A stretch of 64,000 nt of DNA from a virus: positions 9,947 through 73,946 of the IMG/VR virus record IMGVR_UViG_3300046616_000242. One strand, given 5' to 3'. Within the stretch, counting starts at the first letter, position 1; every line of letters starts with the position of its first letter. The notes under the pieces were generated by a model. It was not told where the DNA came from. It worked only from the letters and a program-made list of their open reading frames with translations, and did no database searches. Below, piece by piece: positions 5,586-61,970 of this stretch. The translations under genes and the position numbers were made by a program.

Positions 5586-5969
5586 TTACTTGGTAGACGT
5601 TGGTGTTTCCGTCACCGTCCTCACAGGGCACGGAATCTTGACCTGCACGGAATGCGTATGTGCGAGCCCATATACAGGCGCGTACGGCGTAGCCGTGGAC
5701 GTAGGTGTGACTGCGGGCGAAGGCCCGACCACTATGGACACCTTGCATGTGCCCGTGGTATCCGCCTTTGCTGGCGCCTCCGCGTAGCGGGTTACCGTGG
5801 CGACGGGCTGCGGATTGGAATCCCCCTCGGTTCTGGGAGAATCCGACTGGGAAACTCCGGTATTAAGCCCGGCGGAATGCTGCTCGGGAATCACGGAAAT
5901 TCCGATCGCAGGAATCGCGAGAAATCCGATGGCGATGAGGGCGGCCTTTACTCGGCGGAATCTGTTCAT
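5586..5969 (-). CDS. Membrane-anchored or secreted Thr/Pro-rich protein
   Basis: MNRFRRVK followed by a hydrophobic helix; ATGA overlap with the upstream gene. Confidence 0.65.
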   Translation of the reverse strand: MNRFRRVKAALIAIGFLAIPAIGISVIPEQHSAGLNTGVSQSDSPRTEGDSNPQPVATVTRYAEAPAKADTTGTCKVSIVVGPSPAVTPTSTATPYAPVYGLAHTHSVQVKIPCPVRTVTETPTSTK

Positions 5970-6115
5970 ACCAGCACCGTACCGTAGCCCTCGCAGGGGA
6001 CACAGTCCGCTCCGTCGCGGTCCTCTCCAGTGCCGTAGCACCGCTTGCACTCGACCTCTTCCGCCGCGCTGTCGCCGCCGTCGGCGAAAGACACTGCATG
6101 CACGTGCGCGCTCAT
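5966..6115 (-). CDS. Small zinc-finger protein, 49 aa, with two DnaJ-type CxxCxGxG motifs
   Basis: Read manually: CKRCYGTG..CVPCEGYG; not in the ORF track. Confidence 0.7.
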   Translation of the reverse strand: MSAHVHAVSFADGGDSAAEEVECKRCYGTGEDRDGADCVPCEGYGTVLV

Positions 6116-6127
6116 GAGAAGTACTAA

Positions 6128-7666
6128 CTAACCTTCCTGGTTGTAGAAAGTTGGTACATCGACGATTTCCGCGTCGATGAATCCGCTGCCGGACTCGATC
6201 ATCCGGTCCGCTGATACAGGGCGGTCGAGGGCGGTCATCTGCTCCCCGGCGTCCTTTCCGAACAGGCGACTGATCATACCGGCCTGGGCTCCGTTCCCCT
6301 TAGCCTCCAGTTTCACGGAGAAGGAATCCTGCTCCAGTTCGGTCTTCACCTTCACCAGTTTCTGGAGCCGGTCGATCTCACCGGACAGGTTCGGATCCGC
6401 GTAGCCGCCGGTCATATCCTCGACCATCTTCATGAAGAAGACCCGCTGCGTCTGCATCTCGATGAGCGAATTCTGGAGCGAGGCCATCTGCTGCTTGCTC
6501 TTCACTTCGACCGGAATGTCGTACGCACAGTTCGCGTCCTTGTCGAAGGCCGGGCACTTCTGGGCCAGGAAGCACGCCGAGCACACCCGCATGGACTGCG
6601 AGCGGACGGTCACCAGCGGGACGTCGCGCTCCTTGTTCACGCCGTCGTCGGGGTCGGTGTAGACCTCCTTCTCCTGCACCACGCCGATGACCGGCAAGTT
6701 GGTACGCGCCCGCTCCCTGCGAGGGGTGGGAGTTGTTACGCCGTTGACCAGTTCTCCGGTGGTCGTATCAACTGTGCCCCCCTGCGTTTGAGAGAAAGCG
6801 GAGAGTATCCCTGAAGCGGAAGTAGTAACTGGATCGGCCTCGGGCGCACGGTGTTGCTCGATGGAGGCCGCGAGTTGCTGCCACGACCAGATGGTGAAGC
6901 GCAGTACCTCGTTGTTGTCGCCGTCCTCGATCTTGTCCGGGTCGAAGCCTGCTTCCTGGAAAAGAGTGCGGTGCCGCTTTCGGGCCTGGTCCTTGTATTT
7001 CTTCGGGTACCGCTTCAATTCCCGGCCGGTCCACACGATGGTGTCACCGTACTGCGAGGGGGAAATCCAGGAGGTGGACGCGACGGAATCCCAGGTGACC
7101 GCCGCCATTTCCGCAGGCTTCGTCATTGCGACGCCGTGGAGAAGGGTTCCGTATTTCCGGGTGATCTCGTTTAGAACGGGAGCGAGATTCCGTCCGTCCA
7201 AATCCGTCTGAGTAATTCCGACACGCTTGTAGCGTTGCGCGAGGCGGTCGAGTTCATCGACGCCCCATTCCGCGTGCCAGATAGGAAGGAACTTGTCCTC
7301 CGGCAGGTCCTCCCAGAAATCCTCGCGCCGGGCCTCTATCCATTCCCGTCCGAGAACGACCGCGTCGAACTCGGACACCATATTAAGCGAGTCGATGTTC
7401 TGCTGGACGAAGGCTTCGTAGTGCGCGGCGATTTCCTTGAGTTCACCTATCGAGTACTTGTCGTCCTCGGCCTTGTTCACGGTGTAGGCACCGGAGTCGA
7501 GGAAAACCTTCTGGCCCTCCAGGTAGTGGTCCTCGATGAGCCACGGCCGGGAGAACTTGGTGCGCCTCCGCAGCCCCATGTAGGACAGGGAGACGTTCTC
7601 GACGCCTTCCTCGGCCAGCATCTTGCGCCAGCCGGGGATCTCGGATCCGCCGAAGTACAGTTCCAC
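6128..7666 (-). CDS. TGT/DpdA-like (guanine transglycosylase fold) protein with a C-terminal 4-Cys and helical extension
   Basis: FLDSGAY, EFD, PIWH, LHG and WDSVASTSW motifs; CSAC..C..C near the C-terminus. Confidence 0.7.
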   Translation of the reverse strand: MELYFGGSEIPGWRKMLAEEGVENVSLSYMGLRRRTKFSRPWLIEDHYLEGQKVFLDSGAYTVNKAEDDKYSIGELKEIAAHYEAFVQQNIDSLNMVSEFDAVVLGREWIEARREDFWEDLPEDKFLPIWHAEWGVDELDRLAQRYKRVGITQTDLDGRNLAPVLNEITRKYGTLLHGVAMTKPAEMAAVTWDSVASTSWISPSQYGDTIVWTGRELKRYPKKYKDQARKRHRTLFQEAGFDPDKIEDGDNNEVLRFTIWSWQQLAASIEQHRAPEADPVTTSASGILSAFSQTQGGTVDTTTGELVNGVTTPTPRRERARTNLPVIGVVQEKEVYTDPDDGVNKERDVPLVTVRSQSMRVCSACFLAQKCPAFDKDANCAYDIPVEVKSKQQMASLQNSLIEMQTQRVFFMKMVEDMTGGYADPNLSGEIDRLQKLVKVKTELEQDSFSVKLEAKGNGAQAGMISRLFGKDAGEQMTALDRPVSADRMIESGSGFIDAEIVDVPTFYNQEG

Positions 7667-7696
7667 GGGTTGTTTCTCCGAATCTGAATTGGTGGT

Positions 7697-9449: not shown

Positions 9450-9456
9450 GGCGCCG

Positions 9457-10287
9457 TCACCCGTGCTCGTGCTCGTGGAGGCCGGTTCGGTGCTCGGTCT
9501 CGTGCGTCTGGAAGGCGTTCTTGGCGTTCATGTTCGGGCTGTAGCCGTGGTGCTTGACCAGGTGCTCGACGACGTCCTCGGGTGCCGACTTCTTCTTGAT
9601 CTTCGGCAGTTGCTCGGCCTTGAACTGGTCGAGGTTGAGCACCTGGGCGCCGACGTGGGTGTCTCCCCGGCCGCGCGCTTCAGCGAGCCGGTGGTGTGCG
9701 TCCGCGACGTACGGTGTACCGCCCTGGACGACCACCTTGACGTGCGGGTGGTCGGGATCGAGCGGGCCGGTGATGTAGGAGTGGGAGCCGGTCTCGAACG
9801 CGGTCTGGCCGGTGTGCAGCACCGAGCTGGTGCTGATGCTCTGGAACTTGGCGTGCTTGTTCCAGAACGCCTCGTTGCCGTGGCTCATCTGCGGGCCGTG
9901 CTTCTCGTACCAGCGGTCACCGATCTTGGGGTCGACGACGTTGCCGTGGCCGTCCAGGTGCCCGAACTGCTGCGGGTTGTGCGGCGGGCCCATGACCATC
10001 TGCCCCTCGGACTGGGGGTAGCTGGTGCGCTCCTCGTCGTGGATCAGGTCGTGGTCGCGCGGGGAGCCGATGGCGGTGACCTTGGTGTGCATCCCGCCCG
10101 GGTTGGGGGTGGGATGCGGGATATTAAGCGCGCCGGGTTTGTAGTGCGTTTGAAGGTGCAGCGGGGTGTCGCGCGTCAGGTGGTACTGGGCGCGCAGTGC
10201 GTTCTGCTTCTTCGCCTGCGGGGACTTGGTGTCCAGCGGGACCGGCAGTGCGGTCTGCTCGAACTGCGGCCCGAGGGGGTTGGCCAT
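9457..10287 (-). CDS. His-rich protein with a C-terminal ParB/Srx-like domain
   Basis: VKVVVQGGTPYVADAHHRLAEARGRG resembles the ParB DGHHR motif; TGATG coupling. Confidence 0.65.
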   Translation of the reverse strand: MANPLGPQFEQTALPVPLDTKSPQAKKQNALRAQYHLTRDTPLHLQTHYKPGALNIPHPTPNPGGMHTKVTAIGSPRDHDLIHDEERTSYPQSEGQMVMGPPHNPQQFGHLDGHGNVVDPKIGDRWYEKHGPQMSHGNEAFWNKHAKFQSISTSSVLHTGQTAFETGSHSYITGPLDPDHPHVKVVVQGGTPYVADAHHRLAEARGRGDTHVGAQVLNLDQFKAEQLPKIKKKSAPEDVVEHLVKHHGYSPNMNAKNAFQTHETEHRTGLHEHEHG

Positions 10288-11279
10288 CACGACCTCCGGT
10301 AGGGGGTGTTCCAAAGAGCCGCCTTCGCGAGCGCGGTGGCGGCGTCATCGAGTGGAGCCCCGTAGAGGTCGGTCTCCTGCGCCTTGTGGGCCTCGACGTC
10401 CGTTGTGGCCAGGGAGTTCAGGGCCTGGACCGTGCCTGCCTGCTTGTGTGCCTGCCAGCGGAAGTTGTAGTAGTCGCCGTAGCCGGATCCCCCGGGGCCG
10501 AAGGCTTGCTTGCGGCCGATGTGGATGTCGTCGAAGAGGGCCTTGGCCTGCTCGACGACGATCTTCTGGGAGGCCAGGGAGTTGTGCCACGTGGCCGAGT
10601 TCGGGGAGGCGCTGGAGGCCGTCGAGCGCAGGTGGCTGTAGCGCTCGATCAGCGTGCGGGCGTGGGCCTCTTCCGTCTGCACGGCGTCCCACCAGTGCTT
10701 CGGGTACAGGCTGTGGGGGTCGGTGGGCAGGGACGGCGGCCGGATGTCCCAGCGGTCACGGGTGAGGTTGTAGGCGGCGTAGGGGTTGATGGCCGCGATG
10801 GAATTCGACGTGGTTCCGGGGTTCAGGTAGTACGTGACCTCGTAGACCTGGCCATGAAAATCGGTGATCGCGGTGTGCGGCCACAGGTTCTTCTTCAGGT
10901 CCGAGTTCATCAGGTCGGAGAATTCGGCTTCGGAGATTCCCTGGTAGGTGGGGTTCATCTCGTAGAACTTCGGGAAGTCGATTCCGAATAGGACGTCGAG
11001 GTCGCCGTTTCCACGGTCTCCGGCCCACTGGAAGGAGATGCCGGATCCGGCCAGCCAGGCGGCCAGCCAGGTGCGTACGCCCTGGTAGTGGCCGTCGAGG
11101 TAGGTATTAAGGACGCCGAGGATGTGGTCGCGGACGTCCGGCTTGATGTGGTCGCCGTCGAAGATGTGCGGGTCGAGCCCTGCCTGGGGTGTGCTGAAAT
11201 ACCCGGAGGCGCCCGTGTGAATGTCGGGCTGCTGTCCCTGGGTGATTGCGCGATTGAGGTAGAACTCGTATCCGGCCAT
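10287..11279 (-). CDS. Nucleotidyltransferase (Pol beta superfamily)
   Basis: LAGSGIS....GDLDVLFGID (GS..DxD signature). Confidence 0.75.
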   Translation of the reverse strand: MAGYEFYLNRAITQGQQPDIHTGASGYFSTPQAGLDPHIFDGDHIKPDVRDHILGVLNTYLDGHYQGVRTWLAAWLAGSGISFQWAGDRGNGDLDVLFGIDFPKFYEMNPTYQGISEAEFSDLMNSDLKKNLWPHTAITDFHGQVYEVTYYLNPGTTSNSIAAINPYAAYNLTRDRWDIRPPSLPTDPHSLYPKHWWDAVQTEEAHARTLIERYSHLRSTASSASPNSATWHNSLASQKIVVEQAKALFDDIHIGRKQAFGPGGSGYGDYYNFRWQAHKQAGTVQALNSLATTDVEAHKAQETDLYGAPLDDAATALAKAALWNTPYRRS

Positions 11280-11303
11280 GCCTTCGATTCTAGCTGGAAT
11301 AGG

Positions 11304-11366: not shown

Positions 11367-11756
11367 TCAGAGTTTCAGGCGGGAGCGCAGCGCGGCTTCC
11401 TGCTGCTGTTGCTGCATGGCCTGGCCCATCATCATCATCGCCTGCTGGGTCCTGGAGGCGGTCTCCATGACCTCAAGGTCCTTCAGCACGACGGAGGCCG
11501 CACCGTAGATGTCGTCGGGGGTGGCGCCGCGCCGGGGGACGAACTGCTGGGTGAGGTCGGAGGTGGCCACGACCGCACCGTCCAGGCCGACAGCGACGAG
11601 GAACGCCGTGGTGACGGGGGTGCCGATCTCGTCCTCGGAGGGCGGGTTCTCCTCGGCCATCCTGGCCAGGGTCTCGCGCTGCTCGGGGGTGAGGTCGTCG
11701 GTATTAAGCGGCTTGTCGGCGCTGCTGGTCTGGCCGAGGATCGGGATGTTGGGCAT
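11367..11756 (-). CDS. Hypothetical protein, 129 aa
   Basis: ORF, GGAG RBS. Confidence 0.75.
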   Translation of the reverse strand: MPNIPILGQTSSADKPLNTDDLTPEQRETLARMAEENPPSEDEIGTPVTTAFLVAVGLDGAVVATSDLTQQFVPRRGATPDDIYGAASVVLKDLEVMETASRTQQAMMMMGQAMQQQQQEAALRSRLKL

Positions 11757-12363: not shown

Positions 12364-13341
12364 TTACTTGCCGGTCGCCAGGTAGCGGCCGAGCAGCACG
12401 TAGGAGTCACCGGCCGTGGCGCCCTGGACGGACACCTTCTTGCCGGAGACGGCCACCGTGCCGGATTTCGCGTGCGCGTAGCCGAGGGCTGCATTGGCCG
12501 GACCGCCGACCGCGACGACGACGTCACCGGCAGCCAGAGCGGCCTTGGCCACGTCCAGACGGCCAGTGGCGACGGCACCCTTGGGCTGGAACGCGTCAGT
12601 GGCCGCCGCAGCGGTCATGGAGTCGATGTTCTCGCCGAAGATCACCATCGTGTACGCCTTCGCAGGGGTTGGAGCAGGAGGAGGAGTTGGCTTGGACGGA
12701 GCCGGAGGCGCGGGCGGCGCGGGCGGCTTGACGACCTTGGCCGGGATGGCCAGGGCCTTCCAGGTATTAAGGTCCCCGTTCAGCAGGTTCTGGTCGAGGC
12801 CGCCGACGATGCCGTACTGGTGCACGGTCCACGTCGCCCAGCCCTCGGTCAGCGGGTGCCCGGCCGGGTTGTTCGGGTCGGCTACCCACAGCGGGTAGGA
12901 CCGCAGTTCCTTCTTCTGCGCGTCCGAAGCCACACCGAGCAGGCCGGTGAGGTAGGAGGTGTAGGTGTACAGGAGAGGGGACGCCTTCGTCTGCGCCTTC
13001 ACGTACGCCAGGAACTTCAGGGCGTAGTTCAGACGCTGGCTCCAGGAGCCCTCGGACGCCTCCAGGTCGAGCGCCAGGACCTCGCCCGCCTGGGCGCCCG
13101 CAGCAGACAGGAAGTGCTTGGCCTCGCTCACCGCGTCCTGGGTCGGGTGAGCGAAGTGGTAGTGGCCCAGGGGCTTCTTCGCGGCCCGGGTGGCCTTCAC
13201 GATGCTGGCGTGCCGCGTGTCGCCCGTGTGCTCGCCCTCGGACGCCTTGGCGATGATGAAGGCGTTGTTCTTGCTGGCGATGGCCGACGCGATGTGCGCG
13301 GCGTCGTTGTTGTTGGAGAGGTCGACTCCGTGGAGGGACAT
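12364..13341 (-). CDS. Endolysin: GH25 muramidase, Pro-rich linker and C-terminal cell-wall-binding-like domain
   Basis: GVDLSNN, KASEG, GHYHFA, LALDLE, LWVA, VHQY and LDQN are GH25 motifs. Confidence 0.9.
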   Translation of the reverse strand: MSLHGVDLSNNNDAAHIASAIASKNNAFIIAKASEGEHTGDTRHASIVKATRAAKKPLGHYHFAHPTQDAVSEAKHFLSAAGAQAGEVLALDLEASEGSWSQRLNYALKFLAYVKAQTKASPLLYTYTSYLTGLLGVASDAQKKELRSYPLWVADPNNPAGHPLTEGWATWTVHQYGIVGGLDQNLLNGDLNTWKALAIPAKVVKPPAPPAPPAPSKPTPPPAPTPAKAYTMVIFGENIDSMTAAAATDAFQPKGAVATGRLDVAKAALAAGDVVVAVGGPANAALGYAHAKSGTVAVSGKKVSVQGATAGDSYVLLGRYLATGK

Positions 13342-14056: not shown

Positions 14057-15412
14057 TCAGTGCTCCGGCAGCGTGAACTGGGTGGCGTTCAACTTGTTCG
14101 GGTACGGATTTCCCCGATCCGCCTTCGGACGGTCGTACCAGCCGCCCTTCGGGGCTTCGTGATCCGGATCCGGGTGTCCGACACCCTGGGTATTAAGCCC
14201 GCTGCCCTTGCCGTAGGTATTAAGCGACGCGTCGTGCTTGTCGCCCCGTCGCCGCTTCTCCTCCGACCACTGCGCGGACTGCATGTTCGTGAGGCTGTTG
14301 AGACCCCGCTCGGACATGACGTTCCGGGCGACGTGGTCGTGGAACGCGTGGATGCCCTTGATGCCCATGTAGGCCTGCTGACTCCCGGGACCCTTCTTGG
14401 CCTCCAGGTGCGGAGCGAAGGCACCACCACCGCTGTGCGTGTCCGACACCCAGAACTGCGAGGAGCCATGGGGGTCGACCCACGAGTTGTGATAGGCCGA
14501 GACCTTCTCACCGGCCGTCGGCTTCCACGCGTTCGACAACTGCTTGCCGTTGAGCACCTGGTGCGTCACGTCGATGGCGAGCGCGTGGTTACGCGGGTAG
14601 CCGTTGACCGGGTAGGCGCGGTTGTCGCCTTCCTTCTTCACCAGTTCCGTGGACTTCTGGCCCGTCTTCGAGGTGACGGTCTTCTCGACCTTGTCCTCGC
14701 GTGGCACGTGGTAGTCCGGGTGGTAGTGGTAGTCGTCGCCGGTCTTGCCGGACTTCGCCCACTGGATCGCGTGGCTGGCCGCCTCGTCGTTGGGGTAGAC
14801 GGCCTTGCCGGTCTCCTTGTCCGGCCGCACGAAGACGTTCTGCGGGGACGTGATCGCGTTCGCAGCGGCCTGGACGCCGAAGGGGACGCCGTTCTCCTTG
14901 GCCGACACCTTCAGGCGCGCACGCGGGCTCAGGGAACCATCGCGGGTGTGGTCCTCGGCCGGGCTGTAGAACGAGTCGTGGTGCCCGCCCTCGTGGGCGT
15001 AGGCGCGGTCGACCTGGGCACCCAGCGCGCGGTGCGCCGAGTCGGGGGTGACGCCGAACTTCGCGGCCGAGCGCAGCACGCGGGCCTGCTCGTGCGGGGA
15101 GTAGTCCTCCCAGCGCCGGTTGACCGGCATCATGTCCTTGACCGGGGCCATGGTGTGCTGCCCGTGCCAGACGTCGGATCCCTCGGGGCCCGCGAGTTCC
15201 ATCTGGCCGTGCAGGTTCGGCGCCTTGTCGGTGTTCCCCATCAGGGAGTACGACTGCCGTGGCGTGCGACCGGCACCGGGCTGGTCCTGGATGGTCTTGA
15301 ACCGCTCGGGGTTGGACGCCTCGAACGTCTCGCGCTTGGTGGTGGCGGCCTTCACTTCGCTGTTGTACTTGCGCGTGTCCGCGCCCTTCTGGGCCGGAGT
15401 CTTTCCTGCCAT
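14057..15412 (-). CDS. HhH-GPD DNA glycosylase-like phage protein (DUF7178-like)
   Basis: AITSPQN, NDEAA, KVSAYHNSW, VSDTHS and MQSAQW motifs in the expected order. Confidence 0.55.
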   Translation of the reverse strand: MAGKTPAQKGADTRKYNSEVKAATTKRETFEASNPERFKTIQDQPGAGRTPRQSYSLMGNTDKAPNLHGQMELAGPEGSDVWHGQHTMAPVKDMMPVNRRWEDYSPHEQARVLRSAAKFGVTPDSAHRALGAQVDRAYAHEGGHHDSFYSPAEDHTRDGSLSPRARLKVSAKENGVPFGVQAAANAITSPQNVFVRPDKETGKAVYPNDEAASHAIQWAKSGKTGDDYHYHPDYHVPREDKVEKTVTSKTGQKSTELVKKEGDNRAYPVNGYPRNHALAIDVTHQVLNGKQLSNAWKPTAGEKVSAYHNSWVDPHGSSQFWVSDTHSGGGAFAPHLEAKKGPGSQQAYMGIKGIHAFHDHVARNVMSERGLNSLTNMQSAQWSEEKRRRGDKHDASLNTYGKGSGLNTQGVGHPDPDHEAPKGGWYDRPKADRGNPYPNKLNATQFTLPEH

Positions 15413-33084: not shown

Positions 33085-33134
33085 CGGTGGTCCCCCTTGC
33101 GGGGGCAGGTATTAAGCCGGGTCATGGTGATCTC

Positions 33135-38065: not shown

Positions 38066-38159
38066 TCGGCGGCTCCGAATCCGCCGTTGATATTAAGTCG
38101 GCTCGACATGTTAGGTTCTTCCCATCTCGGGGTTTGTGGTGGGCCTCGGGGTGTGGTGG

Positions 38160-53154: not shown

Positions 53155-56100
53155 TAGTTCCCTGCCGCGATGAGATTGATCCGGCTGTCTTCGGCGAGTG
53201 CGGTCATGAACTGCGTCGCCGCATCCCGTGCGGACGTCTGATCCATGGCGCCCTGCACCTGAACCACGACGGCCCCGGAGTGGAAGTTGAGGGTGGCCTT
53301 ACCACCCGAGGTATTAAGCCCGCCAATTCCGCCCGTGAGCGGGGTATTACTCGACAGCGCCTTTCGGATGGCGTCGGCCTGGTGCGCCGGGATAATCATT
53401 TCGCCCTTGTGGATGCGGGCGGTCTGGTCCACGTCGATATTCGTGGAGCCGACTGCGTATCCCTTATAGCCTCCGCCGTTCGACATCGACTTGATACCCG
53501 GCACATTCGCCAGGGAGCCATAGCGCGAATCCGCATACCGCACACCGGCAATAATGTTGTCGACCGGGTTCCAAATGTTCTTGTGACCCGCCAGCGAATA
53601 CGCGTTGAACGTCGAGTCGATCGTCTGGAGAATGCCCTTGGACGGGTGCCCGGCCTTGGCATTGCTGTCCCAGTTGTTCTGCGCGCGGGGGTTACCGCCG
53701 GACTCGTGCATGGCCATCGTGTTGACGTACCGCTCGTTGGAGGCGGTGTCCTTGTGCAGGATCCCGAGCGCCGACTTGATCCACGTCTTCAGGCTTCCGG
53801 AGGGCAGGGCACCGGCCGCGTTGTTGCCGTTGTCGGTGGTCTGCGACGAACCCTGTCCGGCGCCGACTCCGGAGCCCACGTTGGCCGCACCGATCGAGGA
53901 GACCCCGGCCGCGATGGCGTCGACTTCTTCGGTGGAGCCGTACGAGCCGACGTCACCGCCGAAGCCCATGGTGGACAGTCGGTTGGAGTCGGAACCCGCA
54001 GTGTCGGAGTTGTCGTTGGTGAAGTCGCCGACGTTGCCGACCGCGCCAAGGATCCGGACAGCGTTGGTGAACTCGCCTGGCTTGTAGGACCGGACGCGCA
54101 CCGAGGACCCTGTGTGCGGAGCCTCGATGACCCTGCCGTTGCCTATGCACATCACGACGTGGTGAGCGGGGTTGCCGTTGAAGAGCAGGTCACCCGCGCG
54201 CTCCTGGCCGAGCTTGACCGCCTTACCGGCCTTCTGCTGCTGCGCGGCCGTACGGGGCAGCGAGACACCGATCTGCTTGAAGGAGTACTGAAGCAAGCCG
54301 GAGCAGTCGAAGCCCTTCGGTGAGGCCCCACCCCAGACGTATTTCACGCCCAGGTACTTCATGGCGACCTTGATGACGGCAGCGGCCGTCTTACCCGCGC
54401 CCTGCGTACCTGTGGCCACCGCGCCGGACTTGCCCGAACCGGTGGCGGCCGAGGCGTTGCTCTCTCCAGCGCCACCGAAGATGCCGACACCCGCACCGAT
54501 TGCACCACCAACCAGCGCGCCGACCCCGGTACCGATGACGGGGACGACGGAACCGACGGCAGCACCAGTCAGAGCGCCGGTCGCCGCGTCCACGCCGATG
54601 TGACCGGCCTTGTTGGCCTTCTTGCCGTGGACGTACTTGTCGACCAACTTCGAGCCGAAGTGGTGCGTGAGGTAGGCGCCGACGCCAAAGCCGCCAGCAG
54701 CGCCCAGGGCAGCCCCGGAAAGGTCCAGGGCACCTCCGAGCGCGCCGAAGCCAGCAGCCGGTCCTGTACCGCCTCCCAGGGCCGCGCGAGCAGCACCGAG
54801 CATGCCCCCGCCACCCCCACCTCCGAAGCCGCCGAGGCGGGCGACGCTGCCCAGGCCGCGCATCATGCCGTAGGTGCCCATGGCAGAACCGGCAGCGGAG
54901 CCGACCATGGAACCGGCACCACCGGCCCAGCCGATCGGGGTGTCCAGGTGGGAACTCTTGAGGAAGGACTGGACGGCGGTGCTGAACTTGTCCAGGTAGT
55001 TGGTCGCGGTCTTCAGTCCATCGTTGAAGGGCTGGAGTGTGTTGACGTCCTGATTGCGCAGCGTTCCGGCCCGGTCCTGGAGGGCCTGCGCGTCGGAGTC
55101 GCCGATGTTCCACTTCTTCAACAGGGCCCTGGCACTCTTGTTGCCGGTGTTGGCCTTGGTCATCGTGGAGTCGTACTGCTTCTCGGACGCGCCGTTGATC
55201 TGGGCGCTGAGTATCCCCGTCAGTTCGCCCTTGACCTGCTGGAGGGTGCCCGCAGGCATGGTGCGAGCCAGCGACTGCATTACTGCGGAGCCGTCGCTGA
55301 GGGTGTCGTGGATCTGGTCCTTGTTCTTGATGCTTTTCAGCGACGACCAGCGCTGCATGACCTGCTGGGCGATCTGCCGGGGGTCCTGACGCTGCCCGTT
55401 CTTGATCGTCTGGATGCCGATGGCCTGGTTGGCGTAGTAGGACCCGGCCGTCCACGCACCCGTCATACCCTGGACGCGCTGTGCCTCCGAGACACCTGGG
55501 TTGAGGAATCCGGAGGACTTGGCGTAGTTCCACGCCGTGTTGAAGTTCGAGGAGCCTGGAGAGCCTGCCGTGGACTGCGCGAGGGTCTGATAGGCGAGTC
55601 CCGCGTCCGTCGTGGACTGGGCGCCGAAGTTGTTGGTGAACGCCTGCTTCGCGGTCGCGCCGTAGGACTGCGAGGAGATCTGGCCCGTCTGGTAGGTGAC
55701 GCTGTCCATGAGGACCTTGTCGGGCATCTGCTTGGTGGCCCAGGCATAGGCGTCCTTGAGGCCGCCCTTGAGCGAGTAGGGGCTCTTGCGCTGGCCGCCG
55801 TTGTTCCCGGCACCCCCGCCCAGGCGCGGAGTGTTGGTGCCCGAGCCACCTGATCCGCCGGAGCCACCAGAGCCGCCGTTGTTGGCCGCACCGCCGCCCT
55901 GGTTGGTCTGCCCGGAGAACGTGGCCCCACCGCCGTTGGAGGACGTCGTCATGCGCTGCTGGGTGCCCGCGCGGGGCGCGGTGGCCGGAGCGCTCGCACC
56001 GCCGTTGGGACGGCCGTGTGCGTAGTTGCTGGTGCCGTTCCAGACGTCGTTGGCGAGCATGCCGAAGCCCCGGGCGCCACTGGTGGACCCGGAGCCGTGA

Positions 56101-56446: not shown

Positions 56447-57298
56447 CAGGTCCCCCACCTTGATGTAGAGGGGGACCTCCTTTCCGCACGAATCGTGCAG
56501 GAACTTCACATCATTGTATTGCGGGCCTGGCTGGTTCTTCTCAATTGCATCTAGGATCGACTGGCGGTCCATGATGCCGAGAGCGCGGGCGAAGTCGGGA
56601 TTACCGGTGACGGCATTCTCGGAGCCGTCCGCTTCGACCACGGAAATAAGAACCCGGGAGAGCAGGAGGGTGTTCTGCTCGGAGTCGGTGGCGCGGTCGA
56701 TGACGGCCAGGAGCGCTTCCTGGTCGCTGCCGACAGGCAGGCGTACGAACGCCTTGCGCCCCTTGCGCAGGGGTACCTCGAAGATGCGGGAGGAGGGGTC
56801 CTCCAGGCGCCGCACGGGGATCTCGTCCAGGGTGACCGTCAGGCGGAACTCCTCGCCGCACCACGGGCAGGAGTACTGGTCCCAGGTGATCTCGTCGCCG
56901 TAGGTCGCACGCCGGATCTCCATGAGGAGCATGTCGCGGTCGCCGAGCAGGAGGTTGGACAGCAGGGGGGCGCTGGTCTTCTCGTCGCCCACGGAGACGG
57001 TGCCTGCCGTGAGCAGGGTGGAGATGTACTTGCCGATACCACTCTGGCGGGCCTTGGTCAGGGCCTCCTCGTCGGCGCCGGTCAGTTCGCGGACCTCGGC
57101 GTCGTAGCGGACGGATGCGTAGTCGCTGCCCAGAACGTAGCCTCCCGGCAGGCTGAAATTGCCACCTGCCGGGAGGGTGATCTCGGGCTTGGCGACCTGT
57201 GCCCCGGCGTCGTTCAGAAGCGCCGTAATGGCGGCATTCGCTGCACCGGGGTTGGAGAGGGGGTTGGTGTACCCCTCGGTATTAAGGTCGTTAGCCAC
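56432..57298 (-). CDS. Tail assembly chaperone / baseplate hub assembly protein
   Basis: VRELTGADEE, GDRDMLLMEIRRATYG, CPWC; between tube and tape measure. Confidence 0.8.
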   Translation of the reverse strand: MANDLNTEGYTNPLSNPGAANAAITALLNDAGAQVAKPEITLPAGGNFSLPGGYVLGSDYASVRYDAEVRELTGADEEALTKARQSGIGKYISTLLTAGTVSVGDEKTSAPLLSNLLLGDRDMLLMEIRRATYGDEITWDQYSCPWCGEEFRLTVTLDEIPVRRLEDPSSRIFEVPLRKGRKAFVRLPVGSDQEALLAVIDRATDSEQNTLLLSRVLISVVEADGSENAVTGNPDFARALGIMDRQSILDAIEKNQPGPQYNDVKFLHDSCGKEVPLYIKVGDLFQGL

Positions 57299-57900: not shown

Positions 57901-59445
57901 TCAGGAAGTGGCCGTCGAGTCGGTCGCGGAGGACCCACCCGAGTACTGGCCGATCTGGATCACGATGAATTCGGCCGGGGTCTGGAGCGCCACACCGACG
58001 GAGATGTTCACGACGCCGTTGGCCACCGAGGCAGCCGTGTTGTTCGAGGAGTCGCAGGTGATGAAGTACGCCTGGTCCGGGGTGGTCCCGGCCAGCACGC
58101 CGGTCTGCATCAGCGTCAGCAGGTACTGCGTGATGACCGCGTTGACCTGGTCCCACAGGATCTGGTCGTTGGGCTCGAAGACCGCGAAGCGAGTCGCGTC
58201 GAGGATGCCCTTCTTGATCAGCATCAGCGAGCGGCGGATGGAGACGTACCGGTCCGGCATGCCGGTGGACAGCGTCCGGGCGCCGTAGATGACAAAGCCC
58301 GTGCCCGGCAGCGACTTCAACACGTTGATGCCCGCGACGTTCAGCGCGTCCTGGTCGTCGTTGGAGAACCGGAACTCCGTGTCGAGCACACCCTTGAGGA
58401 CGGTGTCGATACCGGCCGGAGGCTTCTGCACACCGCGCGAGGCGTCCGTACGGGAGTACTGACCGAGGACCGCACCGCCCGGGGGCAGCAGACGCGCCGA
58501 GCCGGAAGCCGTGGTGGCCGGGTCGTTGACGATCAGCCACGGGCCGTAGACGGCCGCGTACGAGGACGCCGACAGCGCGGAGCCGCCCGTGGACATGTTC
58601 TGGAGCGACAGCGCGTAGGAGTGGGCGTTGTCGGCCGAGGTCGACTTCACGCCGTCCACGACGACGAACACGTTGCCCTGGTCCTCGGCCCACGCGATGA
58701 TCGGGTTGAGGACGGTCGCGTCGGTGACGCCCGGGACGTTGAGGATCAGGTTCGCCTCGACGGTCTCCAGCCGCTCCGTCGCGGTCGCCAGGTCCACGGC
58801 CGCAACACCGTCCGAGCCGCCAGCCAGGGGGATGCCGGTCGCTATGGCCGGGGCGTGGTTCGGGGCCCACGTGGTATTAAGCAGGCTCTGGACCTGGATG
58901 AAGGACGAGCCGGTGACCGGGGAGTTGATCAGGGCCTGCGCGTTGCGGGAGTCGGCCGGATCCAACGAGACGTCGGTGAAGCGTTCCTTGAGGAAGGCCG
59001 CAGTGTCACCGCCGACGTAGACGAACAGGTCGAAGCGACCACCACCGGAGGACGCCGCCGTGACGTCGAGGTAGACACTGTTCCCCCACACGCCCGGGGA
59101 GATCGCCTTGACCTTGAGGGTGTCCTTCGCGGTCGTCTCGGTGTCCTGAAGAGTGACGGAGGCCGCGACCGCGTCGGAGGCCGCCGCACGCACGATGTAC
59201 GCCGCGTTGCCGCCGTTGTTGAAGTAGGAGTAGACGGCGAACGGGAGCAAGTCCGAGGTGTCGCCGAAGGCGCCGAAGGTGGCCACGTACTGCGACCAGG
59301 ACGACACCAGCGTGGGAGCCAGCGGGCCGCCCTGCTTGTTCTTGCCGACGAAGGCCGCAACGGACTCGCCCGGCGTGTTTACGGTCTGGCTGAGCGGGGC
59401 CAGAGTCTCACTGATGTAGACACCCGGCCGCTTGTAGACAGTCAT
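57901..59445 (-). CDS. Contractile tail sheath protein
   Basis: RPGVYISE, KPPAG, YGARTL, FEPND and PAEFI motifs. Confidence 0.95.
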   Translation of the reverse strand: MTVYKRPGVYISETLAPLSQTVNTPGESVAAFVGKNKQGGPLAPTLVSSWSQYVATFGAFGDTSDLLPFAVYSYFNNGGNAAYIVRAAASDAVAASVTLQDTETTAKDTLKVKAISPGVWGNSVYLDVTAASSGGGRFDLFVYVGGDTAAFLKERFTDVSLDPADSRNAQALINSPVTGSSFIQVQSLLNTTWAPNHAPAIATGIPLAGGSDGVAAVDLATATERLETVEANLILNVPGVTDATVLNPIIAWAEDQGNVFVVVDGVKSTSADNAHSYALSLQNMSTGGSALSASSYAAVYGPWLIVNDPATTASGSARLLPPGGAVLGQYSRTDASRGVQKPPAGIDTVLKGVLDTEFRFSNDDQDALNVAGINVLKSLPGTGFVIYGARTLSTGMPDRYVSIRRSLMLIKKGILDATRFAVFEPNDQILWDQVNAVITQYLLTLMQTGVLAGTTPDQAYFITCDSSNNTAASVANGVVNISVGVALQTPAEFIVIQIGQYSGGSSATDSTATS

Positions 59446-60133: not shown

Positions 60134-60209
60134 AGCGGGCCTCACGGGTCTCGAATAGCAGAAAGTCTTCCGCCATTCAGGATCCCAAGAAAGCCGGAGA
60201 AGTTTATAG

Positions 60210-60728
60210 TCAGACCGTCTGGGACCAGTGCGCGAACTGCGCATCGTTGACCAGCTCGTCCGGCTTCATCTGTACGCACTCGATACCGACGATGATGTCC
60301 CGGTTCTGAATCTGGCCCAGAACAGAAATGGACGTGACGCGGAAAACCGAGTTGTCGTAGACGATCCGGTCGACCAGGTACTTGCCGTGGTCGATGTCTT
60401 GGTCGGTGAACCCCATCTTCCGCAGACTGTCGAACGACGCGGTGACGGAGATGTTGTCGACGGTGTACAGACCCTGCGGGGTGTCCTGCGAGGCGCCCTG
60501 GCTGTGGATGACGTGCAGGGCCGGGATCCGGTAGGGGCCGATGAACGTCTTCCCCTGCCCCGTCGCCTCGTCGTACAGGTCGTCCCCCGCCGGGTCGGTG
60601 TGGGAGTAGCGGTAGTACTGGACCATCTCGCCGACCTCGTGCTGGCGCCCCCGCAGGGACGCCATGATCTCGGTGGTCTCGTAGTTGGCGTTGAACCGCC
60701 CCGACCGCTTCCAGTCCAGGCGGCCCAT
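60210..60728 (-). CDS. Head closure / neck protein
   Basis: Synteny, beta-rich sequence, TGATG coupling. Confidence 0.65.
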   Translation of the reverse strand: MGRLDWKRSGRFNANYETTEIMASLRGRQHEVGEMVQYYRYSHTDPAGDDLYDEATGQGKTFIGPYRIPALHVIHSQGASQDTPQGLYTVDNISVTASFDSLRKMGFTDQDIDHGKYLVDRIVYDNSVFRVTSISVLGQIQNRDIIVGIECVQMKPDELVNDAQFAHWSQTV

Positions 60729-61537
60729 CAGAAGTACCCGCCCCAGGTCTGAGAGGGGATACCGGACTCGTCGTCGTTCTGGTGGCCCGGCCCGATCGGC
60801 GGCAGGATCCGCTGCGGCAGCGCGTAGTCGTCGTACTCCCGCTCACGGAAGATCGGCACGAGACGGCCGGTCGTACGGGAGACGCGCCGCAGGTTGGTGA
60901 CCTCGATCGCGTACAGGCCGACGCCCATCTTCTCGCACAGCATCTTGTAGCGGTCCGTGAGCAGTTCGATCTGCTTCTGGATCTGCGCGAACCGCTGGCC
61001 CCGGTCGACCGAGGTGCCGTCAGCGGTCTGGACGTTGATGTCGGTCGCCGCGTCGGTGGCCAGCGCCCACATCGCCTCTGTGCACGCCAGCATGACGATC
61101 ATGACGTCCTCCTCCGGTGGGAGGGTGGCGAAGTCGACGGGCTCCTCGCTGTAGCGGATGAACCCGTTGTCGTCGCGGTACCGGGCGGAGATCGTCCGTC
61201 CCCGGTTGTGCTGGGCGAACGCGTCGCCCAGGTAGACGTCCAGCTCGTCGTCGGCGAACAGGCTGTAGGACTGCCCGGACACGAGCAGCAGCGCGTCCAG
61301 AGGAAGCGCAGCGTTCAGGGTGAGGATGCCGTTCAGCGCGTCCAGGACGTAGTCGCTGGCGGTGAGTACCGTCTGCGTGGTGCCGACGACCTGGACAGCC
61401 TCCAGGCCGGTGACGTTGTTCGCACTCAGTTCGTACTCGGCGACGTCCCCCGTTCCCCGGATGGTGTCGCGGAACGGCGTGAGCCGGTCGCCCAGCTCGT
61501 TGCGTACCCGCGACCGCAGGTCCTCAAGGGTGGCCAT
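60728..61537 (-). CDS. Head-tail adaptor / neck protein
   Basis: Synteny; LRRVSRTTGRLVPIF motif. Confidence 0.65.
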   Translation of the reverse strand: MATLEDLRSRVRNELGDRLTPFRDTIRGTGDVAEYELSANNVTGLEAVQVVGTTQTVLTASDYVLDALNGILTLNAALPLDALLLVSGQSYSLFADDELDVYLGDAFAQHNRGRTISARYRDDNGFIRYSEEPVDFATLPPEEDVMIVMLACTEAMWALATDAATDINVQTADGTSVDRGQRFAQIQKQIELLTDRYKMLCEKMGVGLYAIEVTNLRRVSRTTGRLVPIFREREYDDYALPQRILPPIGPGHQNDDESGIPSQTWGGYF

Positions 61538-61550
61538 TCCGCGACTCCGA

Positions 61551-61970
61551 TCAGGTATTAAGGGTCAGCGCGCCAGCGGCGATCTGAAGGGACTCGTTCG
61601 TCGCCGCCTGAAGCGGGCTGTCGATCGGCCACGCGTAGATGACGGTGCCGGTCGTGCCGGACACGGAGGTGACCAGGGCGGCGTAGGTGGCCGCGTCGGT
61701 CATGTCAGCGGTGAACGGACCGAAGAACAGCAGCGCGTTGTTGCCGGTGGTCATCGGGGCGCCGGACGGCGCGGTCCATACGACCTGCTGCCGGGCATAG
61801 CCGGGCGTGGAGACCTCCGGGAGGGAGGTCATGCTGTAGGTGCCGTCCTCCTGCGTCGGGTCGGCAATCAGCAGGGCCAGGTAGGTCGTACGCGGCGCCG
61901 CGAGGGCGATGGCCCGGCCGGTGAGCATGTCCAGGGCGTTACCGGCCCAGACGGGGTTCGTACCGGCCAT
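61551..61970 (-). CDS. Virion structural protein
   Basis: YLALLIADP..EV..GYARQ pattern typical of small phage tail proteins. Confidence 0.65.
   Translation of the reverse strand: MAGTNPVWAGNALDMLTGRAIALAAPRTTYLALLIADPTQEDGTYSMTSLPEVSTPGYARQQVVWTAPSGAPMTTGNNALLFFGPFTADMTDAATYAALVTSVSGTTGTVIYAWPIDSPLQAATNESLQIAAGALTLNT

What the first reader, a model, noticed from the sequence alone, without database searches (positions are those of the whole stretch)
5859..61563. Strand-polarised AT-rich word G(G/A)TATTAAG written into coding sequence across the genome
Seen: at least 29 copies by manual scan (24 GGTATTAAG, 4 GATATTAAG, 1 CATATTAAG), all in one orientation; I found no reverse copy. A rough composition estimate at about 68% GC gives under one TATTAAG per strand, and most TTAA tetramers in the window belong to this word. 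Inside genes it always reads CTT-AAT-AC/AT (Leu-Asn-Thr/Ile/Met), using two codons disfavoured in GC-rich genes. That is the one frame that avoids both a TAA stop and the bldA-dependent TTA codon. Many copies sit in tolerant protein termini (MTLNTE in ThyX, MALNTC and ALNTEAA* in RecA, MANDLNTE, TLNT*), and one is intergenic (33108). An LNT near 29240 uses ordinary codons (CTG AAC ACG). Inference: selection acts on the DNA, giving a directional cis-signal about every 2 kb that would be very rare in a GC-rich host. Known analogues are strand-specific programmed nicks (T5, LUZ24-like phages), oriented stoperators (mycobacteriophage L5), Chi/KOPS-type translocase signals and short phage late promoters. 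It could act as a self-marker for packaging, ejection, protection or modification. I do not recognise it as a described element.
Basis: partly seen in the sequence, partly recalled or inferred. Interest (0 to 1): 0.92.

Follow-up and report, generated by a model that had tools for sequence, protein, structure and literature searches.

The report
Gene-oriented 9-letter word in Streptomyces phages
A lineage of temperate Streptomyces phages writes an exact 9-letter word, always on the sense strand and in frame, about 25-40 times into its genes, and close relatives have switched one letter at nearly every site, which implies an unidentified phage-encoded reader of a kind not described before.

Summary
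The window has 28 GRTATTAAG copies plus one CATATTAAG on the + strand and none on the other (0.1-0.2 expected). All genes lie on the - strand, so the sense word is CTTAATAYC. All 26 genic copies read CTT-AAT-AC/AT, against 0.6 expected after synonymous-codon shuffling.

Relatives carry CTTCATAYC instead. It sits at homologous positions with the same polarity, so about half the sites in two complete genomes switched A to C in concert. A distant relative uses a third word, CTTCTAGVC, at non-homologous positions.

Each genome has one flipped copy, inside a flipped gene. The word therefore follows gene orientation.

In a Streptomyces genome carrying such a prophage, the word is over 100-fold denser in the prophage than in the host. 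Word-less relatives (BRock, G005) have no recombinase.

The XRE repressor-like gene and a tRNA-His are excluded as readers. The best candidate is an orphan HicA-like (RNase-fold) gene, the strongest between-type divergence island. This is correlative.

Most likely reading (about 0.3): target sites on phage transcripts for that allele-specific protein. The main rival is a DNA-level stoperator-like roadblock.

The scan also noted this word in another window of the same genome.

The parts
5859..5867 (-). word copy, sense CTTAATACC
   Evidence: Outside my GC3 gene calls, but in frame in ORF 5586-6050(-). Last copy before the word-free block of small genes.
7379..7387 (-). variant copy, sense CTTAATATG (core only)
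   Evidence: In frame in gene 6128-7666. Position 9 is G, so it is probably decayed or non-functional.
10120..10128 (-). word copy, sense CTTAATATC
   Evidence: Frame 0 in gene 9457-10314.
11103..11111 (-). word copy, sense CTTAATACC
   Evidence: Frame 0 in gene 10287-11279.
11700..11708 (-). word copy, sense CTTAATACC
   Evidence: Frame 0, 48 nt into gene 11367-11756.
12763..12771 (-). word copy, sense CTTAATACC
   Evidence: Frame 0 in the GH25 lysin gene 12364-13341 (Pfam).
14189..14197 (-). word copy, sense CTTAATACC
   Evidence: Frame 0 near the 3' end of gene 14057-15412. One of a pair 27 nt apart.
14216..14224 (-). word copy, sense CTTAATACC
   Evidence: Second copy of the pair in gene 14057-15412.
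17573..17581 (-). word copy, sense CTTAATACC
   Evidence: Frame 0, 32 nt before the stop of the dNMP kinase gene (Pfam). Homologous CTTCATACC in CAT-type relatives.
19376..19384 (-). word copy, sense CTTAATACC
   Evidence: Codons 3-5 of ThyX (Pfam Thy1).
21673..21681 (-). word copy, sense CTTAATACC
   Evidence: Frame 0 near the 3' end of gene 21628-21972. Switched or decayed in CAT-type relatives.
22117..22125 (-). word copy, sense CTTAATACC
   Evidence: Last codons of RecA (Pfam). CTTCATACC at the same place in CAT-type genomes.
23293..23301 (-). word copy, sense CTTAATACC
   Evidence: N-terminus of RecA. Switched in CAT-type genomes.
24807..24815 (-). word copy, sense CTTAATACC
   Evidence: Mid-gene in the ribonucleotide reductase (Pfam). 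Switched in L026, L021 and G015; decayed to CTTCGTACC in G004.
26270..26278 (-). word copy, sense CTTAATACC
   Evidence: Frame 0, 45 nt into gene 25856-26323.
28255..28263 (-). word copy, sense CTTAATACC
   Evidence: Codon 14 of DNA polymerase A (Pfam). Switched in CAT-type genomes.
29042..29050 (-). word copy, sense CTTAATACC
   Evidence: Frame 0 in gene 28382-29194. Switched in CAT-type genomes.
29791..29799 (-). word copy, sense CTTAATACC
   Evidence: Frame 0 in the MerR-like gene 29428-29898 (Pfam). Switched in CAT-type genomes.
33108..33116 (-). word copy, sense CTTAATACC, in a mini-ORF
   Evidence: In frame in a 14-codon ORF whose stop overlaps the start of gene 32788-33084.
36077..36085 (-). 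word copy, sense CTTAATATC
   Evidence: Frame 0, 32 nt before the stop of gene 36047-36280. CTTCATATC in CAT-type genomes.
36846..36854 (-). word copy, sense CTTAATACC
   Evidence: Frame 0 in the IstB/DnaC-like gene 36270-36929 (Pfam).
38089..38097 (-). word copy, sense CTTAATATC, in a mini-ORF
   Evidence: In frame in a 15-codon ORF just upstream of the HTH_36 gene 37052-38065.
38488..38496 (-). word copy, sense CTTAATATC
   Evidence: Frame 0 in gene 38224-39513.
40162..40170 (-). word copy, sense CTTAATACC
   Evidence: Frame 0 in gene 39865-40476.
50451..50459 (-). word copy, sense CTTAATACC
   Evidence: Frame 0 in the 1458-aa baseplate-spike-like gene (Pfam Phage_base_V). Switched in G004.
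53310..53318 (-). word copy, sense CTTAATACC
   Evidence: Frame 0 near the 3' end of the 1041-aa NlpC/P60+SLT gene.
57278..57286 (-). word copy, sense CTTAATACC
   Evidence: Codons 5-7 of gene 56432-57298. Switched in G004 and G015.
58873..58881 (-). word copy, sense CTTAATACC
   Evidence: Frame 0 in the tail sheath gene (Pfam).
61554..61562 (-). word copy, sense CTTAATACC
   Evidence: Last three codons of gene 61551-61970.

Best explanation
The word is a cis-acting recognition site for a phage-encoded, allele-specific reader that acts in the direction of gene expression. I think the most likely version is that it is read on the phage's own transcripts (CUUAAUAYC, CUUCAUAYC or CUUCUAGVC). The proposed reader is a small orphan HicA-like protein with an RNase / RNA-binding fold, encoded in the regulatory region of complete genomes. 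That region is missing from this 74%-complete contig. One trans-acting protein could then cut or bind every word-bearing transcription unit of the phage, and of any superinfecting phage with the same allele. The host's transcripts would be spared because the word is almost absent from the host. This would be post-transcriptional control or immunity with the logic of stoperators.

Shown: the word is real and selected at the nucleotide level. It follows gene orientation. What is selected is its density, not its position. It has at least three alleles that changed genome-wide. It is confined to the temperate branch of the group.

For: Nucleotide-level selection:
- Synonymous-codon shuffles expect 0.5-1.1 copies. 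Observed are 26 (window), 35 (G001), 30 (G004), 29 (G015) and 23 (G018), with none antisense inside genes.

Gene-oriented polarity:
- Every genome checked has exactly one flipped copy.
- In G001, G004 and G015 it lies in frame in a small minus-strand gene upstream of the integrase, and it carries that genome's allele.
- Antisense placement would be codable as GGT-ATT-AAG or GGT-ATG-AAG, yet none occurs.

Co-evolving reader:
- 19 of 39 G001 sites align to switched sites in G004.
- The tree fits a single switch.
- G018 has a third allele: 27 sense copies, 0 antisense.

Density matters, not position:
- G018 sites sit on pre-existing LL[DAG] tripeptides and are not homologous to the family's sites.
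- New sites arise by synonymous recoding of LNT or LHT.

Phage-specific marker:
- About 39 one-strand copies lie in the prophage of Streptomyces sp. NPDC002088, against about 32 on both strands in the other 10.6 Mb.

Temperate link:
- G001 and G018 have recombinases. Word-less BRock and G005 have none.
- The exact G001 HicA-like protein is on record for Streptomyces sp. BK022 on a 951 kb contig, which fits IMG/VR's 'provirus' label for G001.

HicA-like candidate:
- Of the G001 gene families with enough orthologues to score, it shows the largest gap between types: 78% identity within a type, 49% between. Its neighbours recombine between types; the XRE gene reaches 93.6% between types.
- Its form tracks the word in 25 loci.
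- tblastn finds no homologue in the fetched parts of the word-less relatives G005 and G009, nor in any cultured phage record, BRock included.
- The model has an alpha-beta-beta-beta-alpha fold, with HicA toxins at VIA ranks 1, 3 and 4 (Z 4.9, 4.7, 4.4).
- Homologues carry PF07927 hits or JGI's HicA-like name.
- It has its own terminator and promoter, and no HicB partner.
- An RNA reader explains sense-strand-only sites directly.
Against: - The link to the HicA-like gene is correlative and confounded by phylogeny, which amounts to about three independent lineages.
- Other genes also split by word type: primase, a 151-aa protein, the Tyr recombinase and PNKP.
- More distant phages with HicA-like genes show no clear polar word. 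G021, G022 and G023 show none; G019 has only a weak 8-mer.
- HicA proteins have no known sequence specificity (PMC11594946), and 80-97 residues is small for reading 9 nt.
- The fold match is weak in absolute terms (Z below 5). Pfam gives 15.5 bits against a cut-off of 27.
- The 14-residue insertion that separates the two forms in metagenomes also occurs in a CAT-type prophage, so it is not the specificity determinant.
- No data show RNA ends, or any physical reading, at the word.
Confidence: 0.3

Rival explanations
1. DNA-level stoperator-type silencing. A phage DNA-binding protein expressed in the lysogen binds the asymmetric 9-bp site on duplex DNA and blocks elongating RNA polymerase in one direction. 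This keeps lytic genes silent and gives immunity to phages with the same allele. The A/C switch would create a heteroimmune lineage.
For: The word shares the published hallmarks of stoperators: 20-30 asymmetric sites per genome, oriented with transcription, in temperate actinophages, with consensus sequences that co-vary with repressor specificity (PMC6550527). Here there are 25-40 sites per genome. Polarity follows genes, including the flipped copy. The alleles are discrete. The lineage is temperate and its word-less relatives lack recombinases.
Against: No reader has been identified. The XRE/DUF5753 repressor-like gene and its DUF397 partner conflict with word type: three label changes on the tree and a between-type pair at 93.6% identity. 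The same holds for the HTH_17/DUF2637 and SpoVS-like proteins. Sites are 9 bp and about 85-90% intragenic, whereas stoperators are longer asymmetric sites (13 bp in L5, by my recollection). A separate operator-like repeat (ATTACGGCTT) already sits at the host-type promoters. A DNA-level reader does not explain the strict single reading frame of the CAT allele.
Confidence: 0.25
2. Strand-specific programmed nicks, as in T5 or LUZ24-like phages. A phage nickase or a topoisomerase-like Tyr recombinase cuts one strand at the word. Polarity with genes would arise because nicks are tolerated only in the non-template strand.
For: The word is exact, short and strand-specific. A Tyr-recombinase-family gene beside the flipped copy is present in G001 and G018 and absent from the word-less BRock and G005. 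Its tree agrees with word type.
Against: No nicking enzyme has been identified. Assembly breakpoints in four runs do not coincide with the sites, but contigs are poor evidence here. The strong purifying selection and concerted allele switching seen here seem more than dispensable nicks would explain; that T5 nicks are dispensable is my recollection, not checked here.
Confidence: 0.12
3. A positive expression signal. The word would be a phage-specific promoter element, or a reloading site for an antitermination or processivity factor (ops/RfaH or nut-like logic), needed across the long middle and late operons.
For: The word is oriented with genes. It is absent from the 15 kb block of small genes that has host-type promoters. 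In the window, 13 of 29 copies lie between -35 and +100 of a gene start. Concerted allele change resembles T7/T3 promoter-polymerase co-evolution (from my own knowledge).
Against: There is no fixed spacing to start codons. Many conserved copies lie deep inside long genes. G018 sites sit wherever LL[DAG] occurs. Host-type promoters and terminators lie inside the word-bearing region. No RNA polymerase, sigma or NusG-like protein was found among about 100 proteins scanned. Enrichment at both protein termini fits tolerance of substitution better than a promoter role.
Confidence: 0.1
4. A genome-polarity signal for replication, recombination or translocation: Chi-like, KOPS/SRS-like, or primase start sites on the lagging-strand template.
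For: The word is an over-represented polar oligomer at a spacing of 1.5-4 kb. The DnaG-type primase splits by word type (75% identity between types, 85-91% within). The sense strand would be the lagging-strand template if replication runs co-directionally with transcription.
Against: The flipped copy follows gene orientation and is maintained and allele-switched in every genome. A host-encoded reader is unlikely because the host has only about 32 unbiased copies in 10.6 Mb. Primase recognition sites are, as far as I know, trinucleotides.
Confidence: 0.06
5. A translation-level signal: three specific in-frame codons, the first two non-preferred, read by particular tRNAs to pause or recode the ribosome.
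For: The word always occupies exactly three codons in frame, even in the CAT allele, where the other frames are open. The phages encode tRNA-Asn. One CAT subclade also has an unusual tRNA(GUG). In the CAT genomes the word makes up about a third of all CAT codons, which number 92-96 against 33 in G001.
Against: tRNA-His is missing from two CAT-type lineages that keep the word. Position 8 varies between Thr and Ile codons, or between Asp, Ala and Gly codons in G018. Different tRNAs are therefore used at the third codon. If slow codons alone were the point, the word would not need to be exact.
Confidence: 0.04

Closest known systems
Stoperators of cluster A mycobacteriophages (L5, Bxb1)
   Same: Tens of asymmetric sites per genome, oriented with transcription, in temperate actinophages. 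Related phages have distinct consensus sequences matched to their reader (PMC6550527). The count, the polarity, the temperate lifestyle and the discrete alleles all match.
   Different: This word is an exact 9-mer. About 85-90% of copies lie inside genes, always in one reading frame and using non-preferred codons, and they change some 30 tripeptides in the proteome (LNT to LHT). A second, operator-like repeat is present. The phage is a ~105 kb Streptomyces myovirus.
T4 RegB endoribonuclease and its GGAG targets (from my own knowledge)
   Same: A phage-encoded, sequence-specific RNase that cuts the phage's own mRNAs to reprogramme expression. This is the closest precedent for the favoured RNA-level reading.
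   Different: RegB recognises 4 nt in Shine-Dalgarno regions of early mRNAs, needs a host cofactor, and is unrelated to HicA. Here the word is 9 nt, lies inside coding sequence, is missing from the early block, and has alleles.
HicA toxins (type II toxin-antitoxin RNases)
   Same: The candidate reader has the same size (79-97 aa), an alpha-beta-beta-beta-alpha dsRBD-like model and an invariant GGNH motif. HicA structures are the top VIA matches. Homologues carry PF07927.
   Different: It has no HicB partner, has its own promoter and is phage-borne. Known HicA proteins have no defined recognition motif (PMC11594946). A 9-nt specificity would be new for the family.
Chi and KOPS/SRS polar oligomers
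   Same: Short, exact, strand-polar, over-represented words read by a moving machine.
   Different: Those are host-encoded systems. Their words are abundant in the host chromosome and oriented with replication. This word is nearly absent from the host and follows gene orientation.
Programmed single-strand nicks of T5 and LUZ24/tf-like phages (from my own knowledge)
   Same: Short consensus sites confined to one strand of a phage genome.
   Different: No nicks have been shown here. No alleles or concerted switching have been reported for nick sites, as far as I know.
T7/T3/SP6 promoter-polymerase co-evolution (from my own knowledge)
   Same: Many one-orientation sites in a genome change together with the specificity of a phage-encoded reader.
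   Different: Those promoters are about 20 bp, lie upstream of genes and need a phage RNA polymerase. None was found here.

Membership tests
Stoperator system | [quoted passage not shown] | tested here: met
   25-40 sense copies per genome. The only antisense-strand copy lies in a minus-strand gene.
Stoperator system | Sites are bound by the phage immunity repressor | tested here: inconclusive
   Binding cannot be tested with these tools. The only recognisable repressor-like gene (XRE/DUF5753) conflicts with word type. No other repressor was identified.
   Three discrete alleles with genome-wide switching. Immunity itself was not tested.
Stoperator system | Longer asymmetric sites (13 bp in L5, by my recollection), mostly outside coding sequence | tested here: not met
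   Exact 9-mer. 26 of 29 copies (window) and 34 of 39 (G001) lie inside called genes.
Chi / KOPS-type polar signals | Orientation follows replication or translocation polarity, not gene orientation | tested here: not met
   The flipped copy in the flipped gene is conserved and allele-switched. This rests on one locus per genome.
Chi / KOPS-type polar signals | The word is frequent and skewed in the host chromosome | tested here: not met
   About 32 copies (18 forward, 14 reverse) in roughly 10.6 Mb outside the prophage of Streptomyces sp. NPDC002088.
Programmed nick sites (T5 / LUZ24-like) | Physical single-strand breaks at the consensus in virion DNA | not testable with these tools
   Only assembled contigs were available.
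Phage-specific promoters (T7-like, T4 late) | Sites lie upstream of genes at a constrained distance, with a phage RNA polymerase or sigma factor | tested here: not met
   Positions are scattered within genes. G018 sites sit on LL[DAG] tripeptides. No polymerase or sigma factor was found among the proteins scanned, which does not prove absence.
HicA family (candidate reader) | Small single-domain protein with a dsRBD-like alpha-beta-beta-beta-alpha fold | tested here: met
   79-97 aa. Model pLDDT 80 with H-E-E-(H)-E-H topology. VIA Z 4.9, 4.7 and 4.4 to 5yrz_D, 6g26_E and 4p78_D at rmsd 2.4-2.8 A over 55-61 residues. The Z values are low and unrelated folds score similarly.
HicA family (candidate reader) | Pfam HicA_toxin (PF07927) match above the gathering score | tested here: not met
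   Best score 15.5 bits (E 0.018) against a cut-off of 27, and only for the CAT form. More distant homologues do carry precomputed PF07927 hits.
HicA family (candidate reader) | Conserved catalytic histidine | tested here: inconclusive
   GGNH is invariant in the 9-sequence alignment A1, and N and H are invariant in the 15-sequence alignment A2. That this His matches the catalytic His of characterised HicA proteins is my reading, not a residue-level structural alignment.
HicA family (candidate reader) | Adjacent HicB antitoxin gene | tested here: not met
   The downstream gene encodes a protein with a hydrophobic, apparently transmembrane segment. The upstream gene is separated by a terminator.

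The most novel reading that the evidence does not exclude
A temperate phage lineage marks its own messages with an exact in-frame 9-nt word. A tiny orphan HicA-like RNase has evolved allele-specific recognition of that word. This would be the first HicA with a defined long recognition sequence and the first RNA-level counterpart of stoperators.
Probability: 0.25. Interest if true: 0.95.

Novelty: new variant of a known kind. Interest (0 to 1): 0.85.

Why it matters
The word shows how strongly a regulatory or immunity signal can override protein coding. About 30 tripeptides per genome, including sites in RecA, DNA polymerase, ribonucleotide reductase and ThyX, are fixed as Leu-Asn-Thr in one lineage and Leu-His-Thr in its sister, purely to spell a nucleotide word. 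The discrete alleles (A, C, and a third word in a distant relative) offer a natural system for studying how a reader and dozens of dispersed targets change specificity together. That is the open question behind the origin of new phage immunity groups.

The word is also a practical marker. It picks out these prophages in Streptomyces genomes at more than 100-fold contrast.

Tried and rejected
- Read laying: only assembled contigs were on offer. RNA contigs from two root metatranscriptomes match at 90-95% identity and say nothing about ends. DNA contig breakpoints do not coincide with the sites. No conclusion drawn.
Two CAT-type lineages lack it, so it is rejected.
- A guide RNA: the only main-strand complement is the flipped copy, and that lies in a real, conserved protein-coding gene. 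G018 tolerates A, C or G but not T at position 8, which does not fit base pairing. Rejected.
- A hairpin or anticodon-loop-like structure around the word: flanking complementarity equals the shuffled expectation. Rejected.
Not pursued.
- The acidic 429-aa protein: no Pfam or PHROGs hit, and only modest divergence by word type.
- Gene-by-gene concordance near the polymerase: too confounded to be useful. Replaced by the whole-genome scan.
- A profile search of the HicA-like alignment against PDB sequences found nothing meaningful. Foldseek found nothing significant.
- An IMG/VR scan with a tRNA-Asn pattern mostly returned unrelated phages.
Most distant HicA-like homologues could therefore not be placed in their genomes.
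- P0057 was not found in IMG/VR. Alignment A2 was too diverse for the genome scan.
- BRock and G005 show no polar word. G009 shows none that is convincing.

Full report
**1. The observation**

The window holds 24 GGTATTAAG, 4 GATATTAAG and 1 CATATTAAG, all on the + strand, and no TATTAAG on the other strand. Dinucleotide shuffles expect 0.08-0.21. All 82 genes called from third-position GC lie on the - strand, so the sense-strand word is CTTAATAYC.

All 26 genic copies are read CTT-AAT-AC/AT. Shuffling synonymous codons within genes, which keeps every protein unchanged, gives 0.58 copies. Shuffling codon order gives 0.13. Of 23 Leu-Asn-Thr tripeptides, 22 use exactly these non-preferred codons.

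The word is sharply bounded. No flank is conserved within 30 nt, and one-mismatch variants are at chance level. No flanking hairpin exists. The window is part of a 73.9 kb IMG/VR contig rated 74% complete. The first 15.8 kb of that contig have no copy.

**2. What the genome is**

Pfam identifies tail sheath, tail tube, baseplate J, capsid, family A DNA polymerase, DnaB, a DnaG-type primase, an SNF2 helicase, RecA, ThyX and a ribonucleotide reductase.

Complete relatives are about 105 kb. Their 127-bp terminal repeats (measured in G004) look like a product of circular assembly. They also encode:
- a large serine recombinase and a Tyr recombinase;
- a WhiJ/BldB-type XRE-DUF5753 + DUF397 pair;
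- an Lsr2-like protein;
- an RlaP-Rnl1-PNKP RNA-repair set;
- 4-5 tRNAs.

The exact HicA-like protein of G001 is on record for Streptomyces sp. BK022 on a 951 kb contig, which fits IMG/VR's 'provirus' label for G001. A relative lies integrated in Streptomyces sp. NPDC002088. The nearest cultured phages are the Streptomyces myoviruses BRock, LuckySocke, Alone3, GiJojo and pSt2308, with capsids about 72% identical.

**3. Alleles of the word**

Thirty-nine IMG/VR loci around the polymerase fall into two classes. Those with at least 92% polymerase identity carry CTTAATAYC. A sister group at 85-91% has essentially none, and carries CTTCATAYC at the same density and polarity.

The sites are positionally homologous. 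19 of 39 G001 sites align to switched sites in G004. The rest are lineage-specific gains, or decaying copies such as CTTCATACT and CTTCGTACC. Several gains are plain synonymous recodings of an existing tripeptide: CTG AAC ACC versus CTT AAT ACC, and TTG CAC ACC versus CTT CAT ACC.

A tree of a conserved 412-aa protein needs only one switch. The direction is unresolved because the root lies on a very long branch.

The proteome follows the word. G001 has 36 LNT and 3 LHT. CAT-type genomes have 6-7 LNT and 29-34 LHT, and three times as many CAT codons.

A much more distant relative, G018 (100 kb, 60% GC, median 46% protein identity), has a third word, CTTCTAG[ACG]C. It occurs 27 times in sense and never in antisense. 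Counting all 32 copies of the CTTCTAG core, 27 lie in called genes and 26 of those read CTT-CTA-GNC. Its sites are not homologous to the family's. They sit wherever the protein already reads Leu-Leu-(Asp/Ala/Gly), for instance in the capsid protein, DnaB and the polymerase, where G001 uses ordinary codons for the same residues.

Codon-preserving shuffles confirm the enrichment in all four complete genomes. Selection therefore acts on the number, density and polarity of the word, not on its exact place.

**4. Polarity is relative to genes**

Each genome checked has exactly one copy on the other strand. In G001, G004 and G015 this copy lies in frame near the N-terminus of a small, conserved minus-strand gene upstream of the integrase. 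It carries that genome's allele, so it is a working site in a flipped gene.

Coding constraints do not explain the polarity. The antisense orientation could be encoded as GGT-ATT-AAG or GGT-ATG-AAG, yet no such copy exists in plus-strand genes.

The strict single frame persists in the CAT allele, which has no stop in any frame. I treat this as suggestive only, because the other frames would need the very rare ATA or TCA codons.

**5. Host contrast and lifestyle**

In the 10.7 Mb genome of Streptomyces sp. NPDC002088, 40 of the 72 copies of CTTMATAYC lie on contig 18, 39 on one strand and one flipped. About 38 of them span roughly 93 kb of the prophage. The remaining 10.6 Mb holds 32 copies, 18 forward and 14 reverse. 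That is more than a 100-fold contrast, with no host strand bias.

BRock and G005, which have no polar word, also have no serine or tyrosine recombinase. G001 and G018 do. The word therefore goes with the temperate branch of this phage group.

**6. What it is not**

- Not a promoter. Host-type promoters (TTGACA-N17-TAGAGT, next to ATTACGGCTT boxes) and strong terminators already divide the word-bearing region into units. Spacing to start codons is not fixed. G018 sites are mid-gene. No RNA polymerase, sigma or NusG-like protein was found among about 100 proteins scanned.
- Not a Chi or KOPS-type signal, given the gene-relative polarity and the rarity in the host.
- Not a tRNA-linked signal. An unusual tRNA(GUG) with a long variable arm correlated with the CAT allele in six genomes, but two CAT lineages lack it.
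- Not guided by an RNA.
- Nicks cannot be tested with contigs.

**7.

I compared the orthologues of every G001 gene across six AAT-type and six CAT-type genomes. Several candidates conflict with word type and are excluded as specificity determinants:
- the XRE/DUF5753 gene (a between-type pair is 93.6% identical);
- DUF397;
- the serine integrase;
- DnaB and the DnaC-like loader;
- the SpoVS-like and HTH_17 proteins.

The strongest island of between-type divergence is a 79-97 aa gene in the regulatory region (G001 102903-103196). Identity is 78% within a type and 49% between types, while neighbouring genes recombine freely. Its form tracks the word in 25 loci. It is present in G018. tblastn finds no homologue in the fetched parts of G005 and G009, nor in any cultured phage record.

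Its AlphaFold model (pLDDT 80) is alpha-beta-beta-beta-alpha. In an all-against-PDB structural search, HicA toxins rank 1, 3 and 4 (Z 4.9, 4.7, 4.4; rmsd 2.4-2.8 A; 55-61 residues). These values are low in absolute terms, and unrelated folds score similarly. Pfam gives a sub-threshold HicA_toxin hit. Database homologues carry PF07927 or JGI's 'HicA-like mRNA interferase' name.

The gene has its own terminator and promoter. The next gene encodes a small membrane protein, not HicB. HicA proteins are ribosome-independent RNases whose recognition motifs are unknown (PMC11594946).

Four caveats apply:
- The evidence is correlative and rests on about three lineages.
- A CAT-type prophage has the insertion that otherwise marks the AAT form.
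- More distant phages with HicA-like genes show no clear word.
- Other genes (primase, a 151-aa protein, the Tyr recombinase, PNKP) also split by word type.

**8. Verdict**

The finding is real and strongly selected, and I found no description of it. The established facts fit a cis-word for a phage-encoded, allele-specific reader that acts in the direction of gene expression in a temperate lineage.

I favour reading on RNA by the orphan HicA-like protein (about 0.3), ahead of:
- a DNA-level stoperator-type roadblock (0.25);
- strand-specific nicks (0.12);
- positive expression signals (0.1);
- replication or recombination polarity signals (0.06);
- translation-level signals (0.04).

The remainder is left for something not considered. 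The closest described system is the stoperator network of cluster A mycobacteriophages (PMC6550527). This word differs from it in length, in exactness, in being written in frame into coding sequence, and in not being tied to the recognisable repressor.

Noticed in passing
L054:9573-9658 (G004); also in G002, G003, G008: A phage tRNA with anticodon GUG has His identity marks (an extra 5' G opposite C73) but a type-II long variable arm. It is 86 nt and sits directly after tRNA-Asn. It occurs in only one subclade of the CAT-type phages.
   Followed up: partly
L052:15912-16051 (G001): A c-di-AMP (ydaO-type) riboswitch, 59.6 bits against a gathering score of 38. It lies inside the phage, directly upstream of a LysM + NlpC/P60 cell-wall hydrolase gene (L052:16052-16678) and next to the tRNA cluster.
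   Followed up: no
L052:9487-13448 (G001): An RNA-repair set: an RlaP-type nucleotidyltransferase, an Rnl1-type RNA ligase and a PNKP kinase-phosphatase. This suggests defence against host tRNA or RNA nucleases. The ligase and PNKP each carry a word copy.
   Followed up: no
window 5485-5508, 30447-30484, 31108-31117, 36979-36988, 39512-39521: A second repeat, AAGCCGTAAT / ATTACGGCTT: 10 copies at up to 1 mismatch against 0.8 expected, on both strands. Copies lie next to TTGACA-N17-TAGAGT promoters and terminators, so these are probably operator sites.
   Followed up: partly
L053:445-1498 (G001): A WhiJ/BldB-type pair, XRE HTH_31 + DUF5753 and DUF397, typical of Streptomyces developmental loci. 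It sits on the minus strand of the phage regulatory region and recombines freely between word types.
   Followed up: partly
L048:1-2082 (G001) versus G004: The large serine recombinase is only 29% identical between G001 and G004, though one between-type pair reaches 94.5%. In G001 it has a C-terminal DUF4096 (IS4/5 transposase-like) segment. Integrases are evidently swapped among these phages.
   Followed up: no
window 33075-33125 and 38050-38110: Two 14-15-codon mini-ORFs each hold a word copy. Each ends at or just before the start of the next gene (a 98-aa gene and the HTH_36 initiator-like gene), like leader peptides.
   Followed up: no
L288 (G019) 3509-18597: A distant phage with a HicA-like gene has AGGCAGTG 9 times on one strand and once on the other (0.6 expected). 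Most copies read xAG-GCA-GTG. This may be another word of the same kind, but the evidence is weak.
   Followed up: partly
window 16785-17084; L052:14869-15297: The phage encodes a SpoVS-like protein (Pfam E 2e-21) and an Lsr2-like protein. Both belong to families of host nucleoid or developmental proteins.
   Followed up: no
L048:6546-8753 (G001): A 735-aa gene with collagen repeats and a pectate-lyase-like domain lies next to the terminase in G001 only. It carries a word copy 60 nt from its start.
   Followed up: no
G011 (L031) 8175-8183; G016 27986-27994; G024 C18:136147: Single copies of the other allele occur in otherwise pure genomes, for example an AAT copy at the end of RecA in a CAT-type genome. 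These are probably traces of recombination between types.
   Followed up: no
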